Below are positions 25,475-35,115 of a DNA stretch of 64,000 bases, piece by piece. A program made the translations under genes and the position numbers. The notes under the pieces were generated by a model that was not told the origin of the DNA, made no database searches, and saw only the letters and a program-made list of their open reading frames with translations. Source of the stretch: Mustelus asterias (lineage: Eukaryota); NCBI RefSeq assembly GCF_964213995.1, contig NW_027590263.1, positions 62,001 to 126,000 on the forward strand. Direction: 5' to 3'. Position 1 is the stretch's first letter. Each line of letters starts with the position of its first letter.

Positions 25475-25956
25475 AATAAGAAGTCTCACAACACCAGGTT
25501 AAAGTCCAACAGGTTTATTTGGTAGCAAATACCATAAGCTTTCGGAGCGCTGCCCCTTCATCAGATGGAGTGAAAATCTGTTCTCCAACAGTGCACAGAG
25601 ACACAACATCAAGTTACAGAATACTAATTAGAATGCAAATCTCTACAGCCAGCCAGGTCTTAGGGCATTCAGCCTTGGATCTTCAGGTAAGCATTCTCCA
25701 AGGCGGCCTTCACGACACACGACAGCGCAGATTCGCTGAGCAGAAACTGATAGCCACGTTCCGCACACACGAGGACGGCCTAAACCGGGATGTTGGATTT
25801 ATGTCACATTATCAGTAACCCCCACAGCTTGCCTCCTGATCTTGCAGAATCTCACTAGCTGTTCTGTCCGGAGACAATACACATCTCTTGAACCTGTGTT
25901 TAATGTTCCCTCCACCCACATTATCTGTACCTTTAAGACCTGGCTGGCTGTAGAGA
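25475..25956 (+). mobile_element. Penelope-like fragment (duplicate of 22723-23203)
   Basis: Near-identical sequence with the same 23-bp inverted repeat (25640-25662 and 25934-25956). Confidence 0.75.
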
Positions 25957-26051
25957 CCATCATGGACGCAATGGTTTCCGACAGCGCCGTGTATGTCTGT
26001 GCCATGGAGCCCACACTGCTGCAGAGACATATCGAATGCAGAACACAACCC
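25956..26051 (+). pseudogene. 3' V remnant with degenerate RSS (psiV-b)
   Basis: Same as psiV-a; CACACTG at 26012-26018. Confidence 0.8.
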
Positions 26052-26436
26052 CACACTGGCAGTTCCAGTTCGTGCCCAGCAGGGTGCGCTCGCACACGCG
26101 CGGCGAATTCCGTTTCCACCGAGCGAGTGACGGAGATTCTGAGCATTGCAACACAAAAACAGCACTTAAAAACAGCAACTGGCGTGGTCCAGCTGCACAG
26201 TTATATTAATTGATGACCGTTACTTACAGTTGCAGAATCATGGAATCGTAGAATCCTGACAGTGCAGACGGAGGCCATTCAGCCCATCGAGTCTGCGCCG
26301 CCCACCATCCAACCCAGGCCCTCTTCCCGCAACCCCACATATTTACCCTGCTAATCCCCCTTACACTAGGGTTAATTTAGCATGGCAAATCAACCTAATT
26401 GATTTAAGATTGTTCAATCGACCTGAGATGCATTAT

Positions 26437-27005
26437 AGAACATAGAACAGTACAGCACAGAACAGGCCCTTCGGCCCACGGTGTTGTGCCGAGCTTTATC
26501 TGAAACCAAGATCAAGCTATCCCACTCCCTATCATCCTGGTGTGCTCCATGTGCCTATCCAATAACCGCTTAAATGTTCCTAAAGTGTCTGACTCCACTA
26601 TCACTGCAGGCAGTCCATTCCACACCCCAACCACTCTCTGCACAAATAACCTACCTCTGACATCCTTCCTGTATCTCCCACCATGAACCCCATAGTTATG
26701 CCCCCTTGTAATAGCTCCATCCACCCGAGGAAATAGTCTTTGAACGTTCACTCTATCTATCCCCTTCATCATTTTATAAACCTTTATTAAGTCTCCCCTC
26801 AGCCTCCTCCGCTCCAGAGAGAACAGCCCTAGCTCCCTCAACCTTTCCTCATAAGACCTACCCTCCAAACCAGGCAGCATCCTGGTAAATCTCCTCTGCA
26901 CTCTTTCCAGCGCTTCCACATCCTTCTTATAGTGAGGTGACCAGAACTGCACACAATATTCCAAATGTGGTCTCACCAAGGTCCTGTACAGTTGCAGCAT
27001 AACCC
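26437..27005 (-). mobile_element. CR1 LINE 3' end with open ORF2 C-terminus (relatively young)
   Basis: [22 protein letters not shown]...[14 protein letters not shown]...RRLRGDLI. Confidence 0.9.
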
Positions 27006-27009
27006 CACT

Positions 27010-27335
27010 GACTCAAGTCGCGGAAAAGCAGCTAGCATAATTAAGGGCCGCATGCATCCCGACATTCTCTCTTCCACCTTCTGTTGGGAAAAAGATACAA
27101 AAGCCTGAGGCCACGTACTAACAGACTTAAGAACAGCTTCTTCCATGTTGCCATCAGAGTGTTGAATGGACCAAAGTTGATCTTTCTCTCCATCCTACCT
27201 CTGACCGTAGCCATACATGCTGTACTTTCCCCTTTCCTTCTTTAAGTACAATATGTTTATTCGGATAGTGTGCAAGAAACAACACTTTTCACTGTATGTT
27301 AATACATGTGACAATGATAAATCAAATCAAATCAA
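27010..27335 (+). mobile_element. Rex1/Babar-like LINE 3' end
   Basis: Decayed GKRYKSL..TNRLKNSFF C-terminus and (AAATC)n tail. Confidence 0.65.
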
Positions 27336-28614
27336 AAATGCAGTCTCGAGTTACTGAACTTTTCTGAGACTCACAAAGACCAGCGTCTGCAGCAGTTGTG
27401 GGTTGTCAGCAGATGGTAGCATTGTATCATTTGTAGACTCAAGATAAATAAACAGTTTTGAGGTGATTTTCAATATAAATTTAATACCTTGCTTCCCCAG
27501 AAAGCAACAGCATCCGCATCCCTCTCAATAATATCCACAAGGAAATCTGGCCCAAGGATAGGGAATTTAATACTTGATTTATATTCATCCACTCGCGAAT
27601 AAATGTGTCTCTTAACTGCTAATTATTTCTTTACATTCACTTTAATTTTTTGGAAGAGCTGGCTACTTTTTAAATCCAGATTTTATTAAGTATTATTTCA
27701 TTATAATTGGACACAAATCTAATTTTCTCTGAATTTTCCATTATTGAGTTCTCATGTGTTCCAGAGAGCCTTCACAACCCTGCCTGTATTCTGTTCCATC
27801 TATATTAAAATGTGTTTGCTTATTTGAAGATTACACTCCGGCACATTTGAGGCCTTAAGTCACTCTGACCTATAACACACACTGCAAAATTCAGGGGCGC
27901 ATTGGACTGATTTGCTGTGCAGTTATTTGAGTTCTCAGTGAATTGAAGCAAGTGCGCTGTCGAATGCTGGCACTGGATTTTATTAAATGTCGTCGCAGCT
28001 GCAACATGACTCTGATTGCAACTGAATGGATGTTTCGGGCTAATATTTTATGGACATTGTCGTCTCAGCACACGACAAATGACTCGCAACCGCCCACCAC
28101 CCCTCCCTTCAATTCCTCTTCCCCAATACCAGCCTTCATTAATCGCACATCCACTTCTTCAATTCACCATCACTAGATACAATAGTGAATACTTCCCGAA
28201 CGGGGTTGGGGGTGGTGGGGGGGGTGGGGGGGGCGGCGCAGGGGGACGTGTGATGTGAGAGATCGGGTGGTGGGGCCGGTACCGTGAGGCTGGTAGGGGT
28301 GGTGCTGGCAGATATTTTCGTTGTGGGATGACTGTTGATGTAAAATGCTAAGGTCAGTAACTTCCTCCCGAATTTGACAGGCGAATATTTTATTCTGGAA
28401 CTCAATGTGTCCAGCACGTGTTAAATCGCTGATTTTAACTGATTCAAATCCAGACAGCTTTGGATCTGAAGTCGTTTCCTTTTGAATTTCTACAATTGTT
28501 GTTCATGGATTTATCGGGATGAATAAAGCAAAATCGACATCAGTGTGTTTCTGATTGCGATGAGTTTCTGTAGCAAAACATCAGATAAATACGTTGTGGT
28601 GATAGAATAGCTTA

Positions 28615-30282
28615 TTACTGTTTAATGAATTTCAAAATTCCAGTTACTGGAAACATCACCACATTTTTCAGATCCTCTCTGAACTGTGTCTGTGTCACTG
28701 CATAGATGCATGTGTTGGTGCAGCAACTCAGGAGTTGGAGCATAAATCCTAATTCCTGAAGAAAATGTGGTAAACGCGACAGAAATAATTTAAACATGTA
28801 CAGTCGGTCATAAAAACAATAGAAGAGGAACACTGACCATAACAGGAGAAAATTTCCCGATATTGCAAACAGTATGATGATAGATTTTCTTCTTTTCTCT
28901 ATCTCTGGGTCACTTGGACTTTCCCCATTCTTGTGGGTCCGAAGTCTCCTGCGGACTTTACTCAACACCACAATGTATTTAACGGTTAAAACGTTGAACA
29001 GCACAACCAACACAAAAGGAATAGTCGGGGTTAAAATATAGTGGAGACTTTCAGCTGCTGTCCATGCTGGTGAGGAGGCGACATCAAAATCTACAGAACA
29101 GAAATAGGGAGTATTGGAAAGCCAATAGCTATTCTCACACATAAAGTACCAGAAAGTGTTTTTTACAGTGAATACCACACTCACTGTTCCTAGAACCACA
29201 GTTGCCGTTTCCTCAGTGCAGTATTTTATTTTCAGCTTCTGACAAGTAATGGCCACGAATCGATCAAAGGTAAAAGTGACAGTGAACCAGACAGAACAGT
29301 CAGTGACTGCGTAAAGCAGGACGGCATGGATATTGCACACTTTAACATGATACATGAAGACAAATTGATCTCTGAAACTGATGGGAATTTGCCTCAATAC
29401 GAGGTCGATGATGACGACGAGTAGATCCGCCGCTGACATGGAAATTAGGTAACGTGAGACACATTTGGAAAGTCCACACCTCCCTCGAGACAGGATAAGA
29501 ATCGTCAATAAGTTCACTGCAGGGAAGTGAGAGACAATTAACTCATATTTCAGACTGAGAACAGGAGCAGTAATCTGGCAGGTTTCTGGGGAACAGCTGC
29601 AGGATTTTGTTTTACAGAGTCCAGCCTCAGAAAAACATGGATTCACCTGTCCTGCTGAGACTGGGTTCACAGTAAGAAAGCATCGCACTGAGGTATCAAG
29701 AAACTAAATTTACCAACAGAGCAGATCTCCAATTCCCTGCCTTCTCTTTATTTGTATTTGGGAGACACAATGGTACCAATGGGTTTGGACGGAATGTTCC
29801 TGGTCTGGGTCACTCTGCTGTGGCTGTGCTGCAGACTGTGCATCTGAAGATATTGCATAAGTTGATTTGGAATTGGCTGTAAATCACAAAACTGGAAATT
29901 ATATATTTTATTTTACTGAGGCAGGACCCTGTAGATATTAAGGCAGGAATAGTGGAAGTGGCCGGTGAAGGTGTGGTGGGAGTGAGGAGAGGGGGTTGGT
30001 AGTGGGGAGGGGGGAGAGTGTGAAATAGAGAGCAACCACCAGGCAAGAGTAGGGAAATGTCTGCTGGGAAGATAGAGAAATTTTCCAATTGCATTAGCAC
30101 ATATGCAACATGAAGTTTGCACATTATAAAATTATTAATTGGGTCTCATGGACAAGTGCAATCAACAGAGTGAAATTTAACTCACCAGCTACACCAACTG
30201 CAGCGAGGAGTGGGTAGTAAATCCTTTGGATATCGTGAAGTACCCAAGCAACACGAAGCTCAAGTGGAATAATCCAGAACAT
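28615..30282 (-). CDS. Two-exon class A orphan GPCR, GPR139/GPR142-like (~332 aa): exon 1 30282-30186, exon 2 29516-28615
   Basis: Exon 1 starts TAA ACC ATG and reads MFWIIPLELRVAWVLHDIQRIYYPLLAAVGVA with a phase-1 GTGAGT donor. It joins ccctgcag|TG AAC to give VNLLTILILSRGRCGLSKC..SAADLLV..TFDRFVAI..PFVLV..SCCTNTCIY. Seven hydrophobic segments, no internal stops. Confidence 0.88.
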
Positions 30283-31914
30283 GGTTTAGTGACTCAGAGA
30301 TTCAATGATCACTGGTTGTACTGGAGACCACTCTCACTTTTAACACTGATGCGCACAATGAAAACATTCTATATTTACCGAGTGAGGAAAGTCCCCTGGT
30401 GAAACAATTAAATGATGTGCGGAATGACATTAATCACGATCAATGAACAAACATGATGACTTCGGCTTTTATTGCAAAATATATGTTTATTGAAAGTCTT
30501 TTGCACTCATATTATAGGAACTGACTGAAGGCAAACAGATTTGTCCAGCAGTTTGGTGAAAAAAGATGAATATTGATTAACACTATGTACTGAACTGAAG
30601 TGAATTAAAGGAGTTACGAATATTTCTATCACATAATGTCAGTCTACAATTTCAGAATTTGAATGAAATTGTAATCATGAAATTAGTGCAGATTCGGGAT
30701 TCTTCTGTTCATGCAAGAGAGGTGCCAGAAGCAGGATGATTGGAAACATCGCACTGCTGCTATTCAGCAAGAAACAGTTTAAAATCAATAAGACAGACAT
30801 TTACCCTCAAGTTGTTCACAGATAATATTTTATGGAGATTACTCCGAGAGAGGGGTAAATCACGTGTCCAAACTACTTTCGGAAACACATGTACAATTTC
30901 TGGTATCTTTGGAGATAAGTGAGGATGTGTCCTGTATCATTCATTCAAACTTTCATCTTCTTCCTTATGCCATGTTCCTTGCAGTCTGTGTGGAAGCTAT
31001 TCCCTCGATCTTGAACTGTTGCATTCTCGAAATGTCTTGGACTTTCAACTAACTTATCCTGGTAATATTCAAAGCCTTCGATTACTTTTGATTGGTAGAT
31101 TGAAAAAGAAAGTATCAGTCCAGAGTTTTTGTAAAACTGGCAATGAAATATTATTTAATCTGAAATATACCCGATATAATTTTATAAGTACCCTTTCAGT
31201 TTGCAAACCTCTGGTGAAAATAGAACAGTAGAAAGTCGATGGTGCAGGCAGTGGTCATTCAGCTGATCGTGTGGCGCCGGACACAACAGCGACAAATGGA
31301 GCTAGTAGCTCCTTTTAATACCACACTCTAACAAGTGACCCGAGGCTTTGACGGTTGCAGCACTGTGGATGGAGAACCCATATTAGAAATAACGTGTATA
31401 CTCCTGCGTCTCGTTATTTTATGGGAAATATAATTGCAGTCGAGGCGGTCCAGTTCAGATTTTCCAGATGATTAACAGGAATCGGTGGGTTTCCTTTTGG
31501 AGATGGTTGGCCAGGCTCTCCCTGCACAACCACTAAACCTCCTCACGCCTGGACTAGTGCTGTATGTACATTCAGCATCAGCAATTGAGCTCCAACTTCT
31601 ATCAGTCACCTCTCCCCACTCCAACTCTGTAGCGAACTACAGAACCTTTGCCTCTCTTAATAAACCGCCCCACATCAACATCGTCCTCATACTCCTATCT
31701 TTTCCGCCTCTCTCTCATTCTGTTTTTCATCGGCCAGATTGTGGAGAGCCAAAGGGAGAGAGAAAAATCCACACTCAGTCCTTCAATAAATTGCAATCAA
31801 AACGTTTCCTGCACATTCCACTCGTCCCATCAGTTGACTGCGAAGTCTAAAACTGCCAGCGTTGTCAGAGAATACAGATTGAAAGATGACCACTTTCATT
31901 TGGCGAGTGGTTAA

Positions 31915-32110
31915 CACTGAGGTTGAGTCTCTTTGACGACAAGAAGATATGGATGGAATGTTCAAATGGGCCGGTAAGTTGCAGATGGAATTTAACCCTG
32001 AAAAGAGTGGTGATAAAATTTAGAAGGAGCAATTTGACAACGAAGTATTCAACGAATGGCATGAAACTAGAAAGTTCTGTAGAACAAAGGGGGCTTGTCG
32101 TGTTCCCCAT
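31915..32110 (+). mobile_element. Old CR1 fragment
   Basis: gcagatggaatttaaccctgaaaag (WQMEFN-type motif), heavily decayed. Confidence 0.5.
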
Positions 32111-32804
32111 GTTGAAATTGATGAAATGCTGAGTAAATTGTGTTATAATTCTCTGGAGTCAGACGAAAGACATGAGATTGTTTCCCATTGTCTTTCCATC
32201 CCTTTATCTTTATTACTTAGCCTGAAAATTCCTGTGTTGCAGCATTTGCTTCCCTCTCGGGATCTCCATCTAAATCCTCAGTAATGTTCAATCCGTGGAC
32301 AGTTCTATTTACAATCGCAACCCGAGGAAATCTACCTGTCAGAACGAAGAGTTCAGCGTCAACAGGTCAAGCGCGTGGTAATAAGATTAAGGTTCTTGAG
32401 AAGTCGTCACAAACTGGTATAAAAATAAATAACATTTAACACGAGCGAGTTAATCCGATCAAATAAAACCACAGACATCTGAGGCCTCTGGGTTTGTACT
32501 TATAAACGTTAATAAGATTAAGTATACTCTTTCACTATTGTCGTTAATTTACTCTGACTAAAATGATTGAATTCTGACAGACGCACCGATAGATATCGTA
32601 ATTAATACTATACTGATGGCAACGGAAACATGGTCTATTGCAATATGAAGACAGGCTCTGGTGTCATAAAGAGCTGATCTCCGGTTGGAAGGAAAGAGAG
32701 TTAAACCGAGAAAGAGACAGAATGACTGAGAATGTGACAGAGAGCAAGAGGGTGAGAAAGACGCACTCAGCCTGGGCTACAATTTGATTGGAGAAAGCCA
32801 GCCG

Positions 32805-32945
32805 CACTTCGTCGTCAACTAACAGTAATTGGTCCAAAGCTAACATCATCTCAGGCAGACTAACCAATCGCAGCACTGAGAAACGCCCCCCAGTTCCCCA
32901 ATAATTGCAGTTGCCTCTGATCTGAGTTGACTCTGTGATATAAAC
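32805..32945 (+). promoter_or_regulatory. Putative V3 promoter: CRE-like half site (~32811), CCAAT (~32863), TATA-like GATATAAA (~32937-32944)
   Basis: Motifs lie within 200 bp upstream of ATG 33001. Confidence 0.4.
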
Positions 32946-33000
32946 TAGAAGCAGCAACATCGTTTAAACAGTGTGGCTGTTTACTGTCCAATCAGGAACC

Positions 33001-33436
33001 ATGTGTTCCCTGTGTGCTTTACTGATAATAATGGTCATGCTGCCCGGTGAGTCTGAGCTCAAATCCTCAGTGTGTGTTTCATCGGTTATATTCACTCAGA
33101 TTTCTCACACATTCTATATGTTGTTACAGGAACCAGTGGCCAAGATTCAGTTTTCCAGGACCTGCCCGAATTCACGGTCCAGGAAGGGCAGACGGTAATA
33201 TTGAACTGCAACTACACAACAAAATACACTGGCGAGACTCTCTTCTGGTACATTCAACATCCCGGGGACGCTCCGAGATATTTACTGAAAAAATACAGCA
33301 AGGGACAGGGGGAAAAGTCTCCAGATTTCCCTGACCGGTTTTCGGCTGAATTGGACAAAGACAAGAGAACAGTTCCTTTAACAATCACCGGGGTCCATGT
33401 CTCTGACTCTGCCGTGTATCACTGTGCGCTGAGCCC
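33001..33436 (+). CDS. TCR variable segment V3 (alpha/delta-like), intact: leader 33001-33046, V exon 33130-33436
   Basis: MCSLCALLIIMVMLP with a G|GTGAGT donor and ttacag acceptor; GTSG-QDSVFQ..VILNCNY..LFWYIQHPG..DRFSA..LTITGVHVSDSAVYHCALSP. Confidence 0.93.
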
Positions 33437-33475
33437 CACACTGTTACAGAGACACAGTCAGCCCGTACAAAAACC
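33437..33475 (+). other. 23-RSS of V3
   Basis: CACACTG (33437-33443), 23 nt, ACAAAAACC (33467-33475). Confidence 0.95.
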
Positions 33476-33804
33476 GGCAAAGGCAATCTCACCTCCTCTC
33501 ACTGAATCAGATCTGTGAGCTGGATTGTGGATTTGTAATTGAACCCAAATCATATAAAGACCAGCTTGGCTGGTCTTTAAGTCCCCTTGAAACACAAGGG
33601 GAATCAATTATATTTGCAAAAGTAAATCGAGAAACAATATTTGCAACATATTATTGATCACGCATTTATCATACATAACTTTAAAATGAGGGCAAACCTC
33701 ATTTTAAAATAATGCCTTTATTGGTGAAGTTAAACTTTAACCACTTTTATAAATGACAGTTACTGCAGTAAAGCAGTGTCCTGTTTTTTGGACAATTGAT
33801 TTGT

Positions 33805-33890
33805 TCACACGTGACCCGGAAGAGAAGCAGCTTCGGATCAACAACCACATCCTGATACCGGAAGCACGGAGTCTGATTCCAGCCAATCAG
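33805..33890 (+). promoter_or_regulatory. T-cell-type motif cluster upstream of V4: E-box, two ETS CCGGAAG, ETS:RUNX composite AACCACATCCTG, GATA-like, CCAAT
   Basis: CACGTG 33808-33813; CCGGAAG at 33816 and 33858; AACCACATCCTG 33843-33854; CCAAT at 33883. Confidence 0.6.
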
Positions 33891-34035
33891 ATTGCAGAAA
33901 ACCCAAGTGTCTGAAACTTTATCTGGTGCATCTTACATTTGCCAAATGTTGAAGACGTTGATTCAATCCATGCTCTTCTGCTGTGAGCTGTGCTCCGTAT
34001 TCTTACTGACATTGTTATTATATCACACGGTGCAA

Positions 34036-34299
34036 ATGAAACTGTTCCTTATCATTCTGGTGGTGCTAACTTGTAAGCGCAGGATATTTATTTGTGGAGC
34101 TATTTATTTATAATAATTTTGCTCCAGTGTCTCACTGTATGAATGTTTTTTTATAGATCGGTGTCACTCGGACCAAGTTTCACAAACTCCCACAGCGAGA
34201 ACAGTCCAGAGCGGGGATTCGGTGCAAATAAACTGCAGTTATGATATGTCCACCATTTATGGAATGTATTGGTACAGACAAAAACCCGGTCAGGGACTC
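34036..34299 (+). pseudogene. TCR V segment V4 truncated in FR2 by a satellite: leader 34036-34072, V exon from 34157
   Basis: MKLFLIILVVLT with a T|GTAAGC donor and ttatag acceptor; YRCHS-DQVSQTPTARTVQSGDSVQINCSYDMSTIYGMYWYRQKPGQGL, then satellite and a stop. No second Cys or RSS. Absent from the ORF track. Confidence 0.88.
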
Positions 34300-35115
34300 T
34301 CTGTTATGACAAATCTCTCTGTTATGACAATCTGGGCCTTGTATCAGTAAACTCTGCCCGAAGCCTCTCTCAGTTATTACAATCTGGGCTTTGTATCAGT
34401 AATCTCTGCCCGAAATCTCTCTCTGTTATGACAATCTGGGCCTTGTATCAGTAAACTCTGCCCGAAGCCTCTCTCAGTTATTACAATTTGGGCCTTGTAT
34501 CAGTAATCTCTGCCCTAAACCTCTCTCAGTTATTACAATCTGGGCTTTGTATCAGTAATCTCTGCCCGAAACCTCTCTCAGTTATTACAATCTGGGCCTT
34601 GTATCAGTAATCTCTGCCCTAAACCTCTCTCGGTTATTACAATCTGGGCCTTGTATCAGTAAACTCTGCCCTAAACCTCTCTCAGTGATTACAATCTGGG
34701 CCTTGTATCAGTAATCTCTGCCCTAAACCTCTCTCGGTTATTACAATCTGGGCCTTGTATCAGTAAACTCTGCCCTAAACCTCTCTCAGTGATTACAATC
34801 TGGGCCTGGTATCAGTAATCTCTGCCCGAAACTTCTCTCAGTTATTACAATCTGGGCCTTGTATCAGTAATCTCTGCCTAAACCTCTCTCAGTTATTACA
34901 ATCTGGGCTTTGTATCAGTAATCTCTGCCATAAATCTCTCTCAATTATTACAATCTGGGCTTTCTTTCAGTAATCTCTGCCCGAAACCTCTCTCAGTTAT
35001 TACAATCTGGGCCTTGTATCAGTAATCTCTGTCCTAAAACTCTCTCAGTTATTACAATCTGGGCCTTGTATCAGTAATCTCTGTCCTAAAACTCTCTCAG
35101 TTATTACAATCTGGG
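34297..35115. repeat. 52-bp satellite array 1 (~16 units)
   Basis: Unit cctctctcagttattacaatctgggccttgtatcagtaaactctgcccgaaa. Confidence 0.95.

What the first reader, a model, noticed from the sequence alone, without database searches (positions are those of the whole stretch)
28615..30282. Intact GPR139-like orphan GPCR embedded in the TCR V cluster at the orientation switch
Seen: a complete two-exon receptor (true exon 1 at 30282-30186, not the ORF-track N-terminus) in a repeat-poor stretch between V2(-) and V3(+). All intact V genes here point away from it. Inference: if J-C has the usual orientation on either side, these V genes would rearrange by deleting away from the receptor or by inversion, so they would not excise it. 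This parallels olfactory receptors at the mammalian TRA/TRD locus. It raises the possibility of a lymphocyte-coregulated orphan receptor family co-amplified with V genes. This is my best candidate for an undescribed system.
Basis: partly seen in the sequence, partly recalled or inferred. Interest (0 to 1): 0.75.

Follow-up and report, generated by a model that had tools for sequence, protein, structure and literature searches.

The report
Receptor gene pasted into shark TCR
This intact receptor gene is one of about two thousand related copies spread across a shark genome; a single recent copy was pasted among T-cell receptor V genes and duplicated along with them, most likely as a passenger rather than as part of an immune system.

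Summary
The gene is real: two exons, 332 aa, class A GPCR, between TCR-alpha-type V genes. The proposed system is not supported. It belongs to a shark family with 1,969 exact motif matches in this genome; 2 of 55 subsampled sites lie on contigs where V hits were listed. V genes lie within ~10 kb of 10 of 14 copies at 97% identity or more, but of only 1 of 37 more distant copies. The ten V-linked copies form one clade, born by one insertion of a 5.2-kb cassette (27017-32184). Donors continue retroelement sequence across both junctions, and empty sites exist. The 'orientation switch' is not special: 8 of 9 sister copies have an intact V pointing at the receptor. No J segment lies on 564 of the contig's 567 kb. 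Variation since the insertion looks neutral (15 nonsynonymous, 2 synonymous). Expression and cross-species synteny are untested. The scan has reported the family many times on other DNA, once beside V pseudogenes in another genome. My literature searches did not find it described.

The parts
30186..30282 (-). GPCR exon 1 (ATG, N-terminus and first half of TM1; phase-1 GT donor)
   Evidence: same 97-nt exon and GTGAGT donor in 14 of 14 other close copies
29517..30185 (-). GPCR intron, 669 nt, GT-AG
28615..29516 (-). GPCR exon 2 (rest of 7TM domain, TAA stop); AATAAA at 28394
27017..32184 (-). Inserted 5.17-kb GPCR cassette: the stretch shared with V-free donor copies, with sharp junctions at both ends
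26436..27008 (-). Young retroelement fragment at the left junction (97-98% identical to copies elsewhere; CR1/LINE label is recalled, not from a call)
31900..32184 (+). Retroelement fragment cut at the right junction; it continues in 4 of 4 V-free donor copies (left limit approximate)
   Evidence: (very high depth bin)
21836..22395 (-). V1, intact TRAV-type gene: leader 22395-22362, V exon 22167-21875, 23-RSS 21874-21836
24591..25149 (-). V2, intact TRAV-type gene, tandem duplicate of V1 (about 2.75-kb unit): leader 25149-25116, V exon 24922-24630, 23-RSS 24629-24591
33001..33475 (+). V3, intact TRAV-type gene, head-to-head with the GPCR (ATGs 2.7 kb apart): leader 33001-33046, V exon 33130-33436, 23-RSS 33437-33475
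23180..23300 (+). Broken V remnant (3' end, degenerate RSS) pointing toward the GPCR; left limit approximate
   Evidence: no Pfam match
25935..26053 (+). Duplicate broken V remnant pointing toward the GPCR; left limit approximate
34036..34299 (+). V4, cut off after the first half of the V exon by a 52-bp satellite; whole in sister copies
19580..21329 (.). 69-bp satellite bounding the island on the left
34314..35115 (.). 52-bp satellite bounding the island on the right

Best explanation
The gene is an intact member of a shark receptor family of about two thousand copies, and its place among T-cell receptor V genes comes from one recent 5.2-kb insertion that was then duplicated with the V array, most likely as a passenger with no role in T-cell receptor biology. 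Shown: the gene structure; the family size and spread; the cassette and its junctions; donor and empty-site states; one clade of V-linked copies; V genes in both orientations around them; and decay of some copies. Inferred: the donor lay on the same antigen-receptor chromosome; the copy arrived by a duplication joined at short microhomology, with a retroelement at the left end; and it keeps its own inherited promoter. Also inferred: the protein would work as a class A receptor for a small ligand, using a pocket that keeps two of four GPR139 ligand residues.
For: Family: 131 scored of 5,915 candidates; 1,969 exact motif matches, 0 in the reversed control. Of 55 rare-variant sites, 1 is on C71, 1 on C90, and the rest on C5, C8, C15, C16, C20-C23, C25, C69, C70, C72, C73, C76 and small contigs. 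1,667 related protein clusters at E<=1e-30; 119 of the 120 listed are named 'GPR139' in sharks (one has no name), many on 30-172 Mb contigs. Flank test on 51 of the 131 hits: V within ~10 kb of 10 of 14 copies at 97% or more, 0 of 1 at 90%, 1 of 18 at 69-76%, 0 of 18 at 59-64% (the V-free and more distant copies re-scanned with a V profile). Direction: 4 of 4 V-free close copies, and the 86% copy at the left end, continue the retroelement sequence across the junctions; 2 of 13 V3-like loci are empty sites whose homology ends at 32184. The 10 V-linked copies form a clade, support 97/98. Selection: 15 nonsynonymous (1 nonsense) against 2 synonymous variants, neutral expectation not rejected (p 0.39); dN/dS is 0.28 on the older branch. 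One further cassette copy is truncated and one has lost the gene. Eight other GPCR hits lie 18-29 kb from a V hit, and each of those V hits has a stop codon. The V-to-J stretch of the J-bearing contig C546 (first 170 of 249 kb) has 10 V, more than 40 J and no GPCR.
Against: 9 of 10 V-linked copies keep an open frame and splice sites, and 8 of 10 keep V3 head-to-head at the same distance; recent origin explains both, but so would selection. The neutral-looking variant ratio also holds for the V-free close copies (14:3), rests on 17 variants, and may include sequence errors. Several independent GPCR/V juxtapositions exist on this chromosome: a different paralogue fragment joined 7 bp from the same site in C386 and C815; a full-length paralogue 14 kb from a V array at C71:19.34 Mb; and C119. 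An earlier unchecked note saw the same mixing in another genome. The 70-76% subfamily lies mostly on C71 and scaffolds with V or C1 hits. Copies are not independent, so the contrast is one event, not ten. Read depth suggests fewer copies (about 5-7 in one run) than the 14 assembled (the tool warns that depth is no copy number, and the other run disagrees).
Confidence: 0.78

Rival explanations
1. Bystander activation: the insertion was accidental, but when the head-to-head V3-type segment rearranges, the receptor promoter 2.7 kb away would come under the TCR-alpha enhancer, giving clonally distributed receptor expression on some T cells.
For: Head-to-head geometry kept in 8 of 10 V-linked copies; V3 has an intact leader, exon and near-consensus RSS; 9 of 10 copies have open frames. 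That rearranged V promoters come under the alpha enhancer is recalled knowledge.
Against: The geometry dates from one insertion. The cassette brings its own upstream 1.9 kb from a V-free donor. This copy has no J within at least 82 kb left or 470 kb right. No excess of synonymous change.
Confidence: 0.1
2. Immune receptor family: the whole family is a leukocyte receptor repertoire whose clusters are kept near immune loci for co-regulation.
For: The close subfamily is concentrated on C71 and similar scaffolds, which carry TRAJ, V and C1 exons. A large C8 cluster (21-44 Mb) surrounds MHC class II-like exons at 34.4-34.7 Mb. An earlier unchecked note (e1-9500982) saw mixing with V pseudogenes in another genome.
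Against: 53 of 55 subsampled family sites are off contigs with listed V hits. The C5 cluster (30 sites) has no exact 23-RSS. Tandem families tend to gather in the same unstable regions (general knowledge). No enrichment test against other tandem families was run.
Confidence: 0.1
3. Assembly artefact: the many near-identical GPCR+V copies are uncollapsed haplotypes or chimeric scaffolds.
For: All 14 close copies are on contigs under 3 Mb; C91a and C91b are identical over the 3.1-kb core; depth in one run suggests about half the assembled number.
Against: Copies differ by about 1-3% and have distinct flanking rearrangements. Two copies and an empty site share contig C315. Cassette contigs are several times deeper than the J region in both runs. 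At most this inflates the count; it does not create the junctions.
Confidence: 0.02

Closest known systems
Olfactory receptor genes in the mammalian TRA/TRD locus (human OR10G2, OR4E2; mouse Olfr1507-1509; PMC4574546, passages read)
   Same: Class A GPCR genes sitting between TRAV genes.
   Different: The mammalian genes sit at the 5' edge in synteny shared by human, mouse and sheep. This one is a different receptor family, entered recently (about 3% divergence from the donors), lies inside a mixed-orientation array, and was multiplied with it at least ten times in the assembly.
Elasmobranch antigen receptor complex (AgRC; PMC12227049, abstract and sections 6 and 15 read, supplements searched)
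   Same: C71 and associated scaffolds carry TRAJ segments, many C1-set exons and TCR-alpha/delta-type V exons scattered between them, as the paper describes.
   Different: The paper has no occurrence of GPR, GPCR or G protein in the main text and none of four GPR139-type terms in 2 supplementary files; these receptors are not part of its description. PSMB5 and UrIg2 were not looked for here.
GPR139 (and GPR142), Trp/Phe-activated orphan class A receptors (PMC5430874, abstract read)
   Same: Best and only PDB sequence match; H187 and W241 kept, F109 replaced by Tyr; DRF in place of DRY.
   Different: Only 30.9 bits; N271 replaced by Phe, the TM6 proline is lost, and there are about 2,000 copies against a conserved brain receptor. 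Fold search on a weak model did not single out GPR139.
RefSeq/UniRef 'probable G-protein coupled receptor 139' models of sharks
   Same: Same family: 61-71% identity for most listed hits, full coverage.
   Different: No hit above 71%, so this clade has no close counterpart among the candidates scored; the label is automatic.

Membership tests
Class A (rhodopsin-like) GPCR | 7tm_1 domain above the curated cut-off | tested here: met
   59.2 bits, cut-off 30.5
Class A (rhodopsin-like) GPCR | Seven-helix fold like solved class A receptors | tested here: inconclusive
   Exon-2 model has seven long helices but pLDDT 57; the 50 listed Foldseek hits are all class A receptors or their complexes, at TM about 0.5-0.6
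GPR139 orthologues | Ligand residues F109, H187, W241, N271 (PMC5430874 abstract) | tested here: not met
   Y101, H191 (placed from the TM5 proline), W259, F290; F at the N271 site in 49 of 52 relatives
GPR139 orthologues | Highly conserved gene across vertebrates (PMC12208981, search listing); single copy (recalled) | tested here: not met
   30.9 bits to human GPR139; 1,969 motif matches in this genome
GPR139 orthologues | Brain (habenula) expression and activation by Trp/Phe | not testable with these tools
   No RNA holder listed; no assay
Shark 'probable GPR139' expanded family | High full-length identity to the shark models and the family TM3 motif | tested here: met
   Up to 71% identity at full coverage; motif present in the window copy; Atlas first hit 0.97
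TRAV/TRDV-type V genes (V1-V3) | Leader exon, V-set exon, 23-spacer RSS | tested here: met
   TCR alpha chains are among the PDB hits but scFvs rank higher, so alpha versus delta is not resolved
Functional TRA translocon segment | J segments and constant region in cis | tested here: inconclusive
   No J on 564 of 567 kb of C231; TRAJ clusters on C71 (18.37 Mb) and C546; C231 is unplaced, and its right flank matches the block upstream of the first V on C546
Conserved GPCR-in-TRA linkage (OR-like) | Same receptor at the same locus position across species | not testable with these tools
   No other shark genome can be searched; within this genome the linkage is confined to a clade about 3% from its V-free donors
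Lymphocyte-coregulated receptor system | Family enriched beside V genes | tested here: not met
   1 of 37 copies below 97% identity has V within ~10 kb; 2 of 55 sampled sites lie on contigs with listed V hits
Lymphocyte-coregulated receptor system | Expression in thymus or T cells | not testable with these tools
   No RNA holder listed

The most novel reading that the evidence does not exclude
The inserted receptor has been captured by the T-cell receptor locus. Rearrangement of the head-to-head V3-type segment switches it on, so shark T-cell clones carry a ligand-sensing GPCR tied to V-gene choice. The same capture has happened more than once (a second paralogue is joined 7 bp from the same site; a third lies beside the V array on C71).
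Probability: 0.08. Interest if true: 0.8.

Novelty: new variant of a known kind. Interest (0 to 1): 0.33.

Why it matters
As it stands, it shows that the shark TCR-alpha V array takes in foreign genes and multiplies them, in a mixed-orientation, segmentally duplicated array. That matters for annotating the elasmobranch antigen-receptor chromosome and warns against reading function into adjacency there. The receptor family itself (about 2,000 copies, not found in my literature searches) is the larger open question, but this window adds little to it. If the novel case held, it would be a first link between V-gene choice and expression of a non-immune receptor, testable with one single-cell experiment.

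Tried and rejected
Expression: no RNA holder listed; the four runs laid showed no joint over the intron and are of unrecorded kind. This is no evidence either way. Cross-species synteny: two protein searches with V3 gave only 2 and 1 hits, so contigs of V and GPCR homologues in other sharks could not be compared. TCR constant region: not located; the C1-set search lists only its best 150 of 793 candidates, and the last 79 kb of C546 and the C71 J-C region were not read. My C1 queries for C231 were light-chain-like and MHC-like, so a TCR C exon there could be missed. Target-site duplication: the sequence left of the empty site was not found at high identity beyond any V-linked cassette (best 78-83%, paralogous), so a clean transposition is not shown. 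RAG-mediated joining at the right junction was considered and rejected: the heptamer-like word there lacks the invariant CAC. Structure: low-confidence model, fold search not discriminating. The bacterial promoter scan is irrelevant for this organism. Literature: searches for GPR139+shark (4 papers), 'coupled receptor 139'+shark+tandem (1 with all terms, on a snail), GPR139+cartilaginous+expansion (1), elasmobranch+GPCR expansion (31, 15 listed) and GPR142+GPR139+evolution+chondrichthyan (44, 10 listed) showed, by listing only, no description of the family or its TCR linkage. Term look-ups in the Squalomix preprint (its supplements are closed and its tandem-cluster table may bear on this), the catshark genome paper and PMC12227049 were also blank. 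Subscription papers are not searched. The Fisher test on V proximity (p 1e-6) treats related copies as independent and is not used as evidence.

Full report
1. Observation. The minus strand carries a two-exon gene: exon 1 at 30282-30186, a 669-nt GT-AG intron, and exon 2 at 29516-28615, giving 332 aa. It matches Pfam 7tm_1. Among solved structures it matches only human GPR139, weakly (30.9 bits). V1 and V2 (minus) and V3 (plus) are intact V genes with 23-spacer RSS and point away from it. The window also has two broken V remnants pointing toward it and a fourth V cut by a satellite. The core observation stands.

2. The family. A search of the own genome scored 131 of 5,915 candidates, the weakest listed still at 59-64% identity. 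One 23-nt family motif has 1,969 exact matches, control 0. The first 100 in contig order lie on C4 (1), C5 (30) and C8 (69). Two rare variants of the motif gave a rough subsample of 55 sites: 1 on C71, 1 on C90, and 53 on other chromosomes and small contigs. This subsample is not strictly random, and the lists of V-bearing contigs are lower bounds. In the protein collection 1,667 clusters pass E 1e-30. Of the 120 listed, 119 are shark models labelled GPR139 and one is unnamed; many lie on contigs of 30-172 Mb, and the best is 71% identical. The label is loose. Of four GPR139 ligand residues (PMC5430874, abstract), two are kept (H191, W259), one is conservative (Y101) and one is replaced (F290). 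It may work like a small-ligand class A receptor; it is not a GPR139 orthologue.

3. The chromosome. TRAJ clusters lie at C71:18.37 Mb and on C546. C71 (20.4 Mb) and many unplaced scaffolds carry C1-set exons, V hits and family members intermixed. This fits the elasmobranch antigen receptor complex, where TCR-type V exons lie between IgH clusters (PMC12227049, section 6); the match is inferred, as marker genes were not checked. The window's contig C231 is unplaced. In 564 of its 567 kb there are only these V genes, one GPCR and no J; the rest is duplicated satellite and retroelement blocks. Window 35.8-58.6 kb matches, in pieces at 95-98%, the block upstream of the first V on C546. Whether this island can rearrange is therefore open.

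4. Is the receptor tied to V genes? I read about 9 kb upstream and 10 kb downstream of 51 of the 131 hits (one downstream flank was only 382 bp). V genes were found beside 10 of 14 copies at 97% identity or more, 0 of 1 at 90%, 1 of 18 at 69-76% and 0 of 18 at 59-64%. A V profile run over the V-free and more distant copies found nothing more. The ten V-linked copies form one clade (97/98), with the V-free copies outside it (15 rows, none dropped). At wider range, eight other hits lie 18-29 kb from a V hit: four on C71, two on C119, one each on C90 and C106. Each of those V hits has a stop codon. A full-length paralogue lies 14 kb from a V array at C71:19.34 Mb. So mixing recurs on this chromosome, but it is not a property of the family.

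5. How it got there. The window shares exactly 27017-32185 with the four V-free close copies. In these donors, retroelement sequence runs on across both junctions, and at the left junction also in the 86% copy; in the window it is cut. Of 13 V3-like loci without a listed GPCR, 2 are empty sites that share 32184-34299 and then diverge. One holds a truncated cassette and one a remnant without the gene. Two hold a different paralogue fragment (44% identity) joined 7 bp from the same point. Seven share little beyond V3 itself, one of them with a diverged version of the empty junction. The GPCR cassette was therefore inserted into the V array (shown) and then duplicated and rearranged with it. The right junction has 1-2 bases of microhomology; the left abuts a young retroelement piece; no target-site duplication was found. 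A non-homologous duplication is inferred. Donor scaffolds C91 and C173 carry V and C1 hits, which suggests a local source.

6. The orientation argument. Around the ten copies, 13 intact V genes with good RSS point toward the receptor and 30 away, and 8 of 9 sister copies have at least one pointing toward it. On C546, 7 V genes are on the J strand and 3 are opposite. Strand changes are routine in this array. Whether the gene is excised depends on J position and on all upstream V genes, and with many copies, four of them outside V arrays, retention would hardly matter.

7. Selection. Nine of ten V-linked copies are open. Their variants are 15 nonsynonymous (one nonsense) and 2 synonymous, compatible with neutrality (p 0.39) and unlike the older branch (dN/dS 0.28; Fisher p 0.006). 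The V-free close copies show a similar ratio (14:3), so this reflects recent duplicates in general and is weak evidence. Contig depth over the cassette is several times that of the J region, about 5-7-fold in one run and more in the other, so the clade is multi-copy but 14 may be inflated.

8. Comparison and verdict. The arrangement resembles olfactory receptor genes among mammalian TRAV genes (PMC4574546, passages), but it is recent and amplified rather than old and syntenic. My searches found no paper on the family or its linkage (listings; look-ups). Earlier notes of this scan report the family in many genomes, and once beside V pseudogenes; these are unchecked. Best reading: a passenger insertion co-duplicated with the V array (0.78). 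Bystander expression after V3 rearrangement (0.10) and a family-wide immune role (0.10) remain open because no expression data were available. Interest 0.33; new variant of a known kind.

Noticed in passing
L155:6912-7216 (G000:C386) and L162:3156-3461 (G000:C815): A different GPCR paralogue fragment (44% identity, TM1-TM4) is joined to the V3 upstream region 7 bp from where this window's cassette is joined: two apparently independent breakpoints at one spot.
   Followed up: partly
L055, L067, L069 (G000:C232, C1506, C386): In three copies a V gene with a 24-spacer RSS has been joined convergently about 50 bp behind the GPCR stop codon, replacing the 3' flank and its AATAAA.
   Followed up: partly
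G000:C8:21-44 Mb; L015: A large cluster of this family surrounds MHC class II-like exons at 34.4-34.7 Mb (label from my reading of the translation), with light-chain-like clusters at 50-51 Mb; reminiscent of MHC-linked olfactory receptors (recalled).
   Followed up: no
G000:C326, C374, C334, C332: Near-identical family members recur with a period of about 61.6 kb, i.e. large tandem arrays.
   Followed up: no
L050 (G000:C71:18.37 Mb) and L051, L225-L228 (G000:C546:138-170 kb): Two TRAJ clusters with related but different J sequences; C546 has more than 40 J segments in repeated sub-units. Duplicate locus or two parts of one is unresolved.
   Followed up: partly
G000:C71:19.36-19.40 Mb; L232-L234: A tandem V array (2.46-kb period, 11 exact 23-RSS on the minus strand) lies about 1 Mb downstream of the J cluster and points back toward it, 14 kb from a full-length GPCR paralogue.
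   Followed up: partly
window 4080-4220 and 13280-13420: Two copies of a short stretch reading D-x-A-x-Y-F-C-A-L with an upstream stop and no RSS; possibly old V remnants in the left satellite block, not matched by the V profile.
   Followed up: partly
window 35800-58700: Right flank matches G000:C546:6-31 kb in reverse at 95-98% in pieces, and repeats several times along C231.
   Followed up: partly
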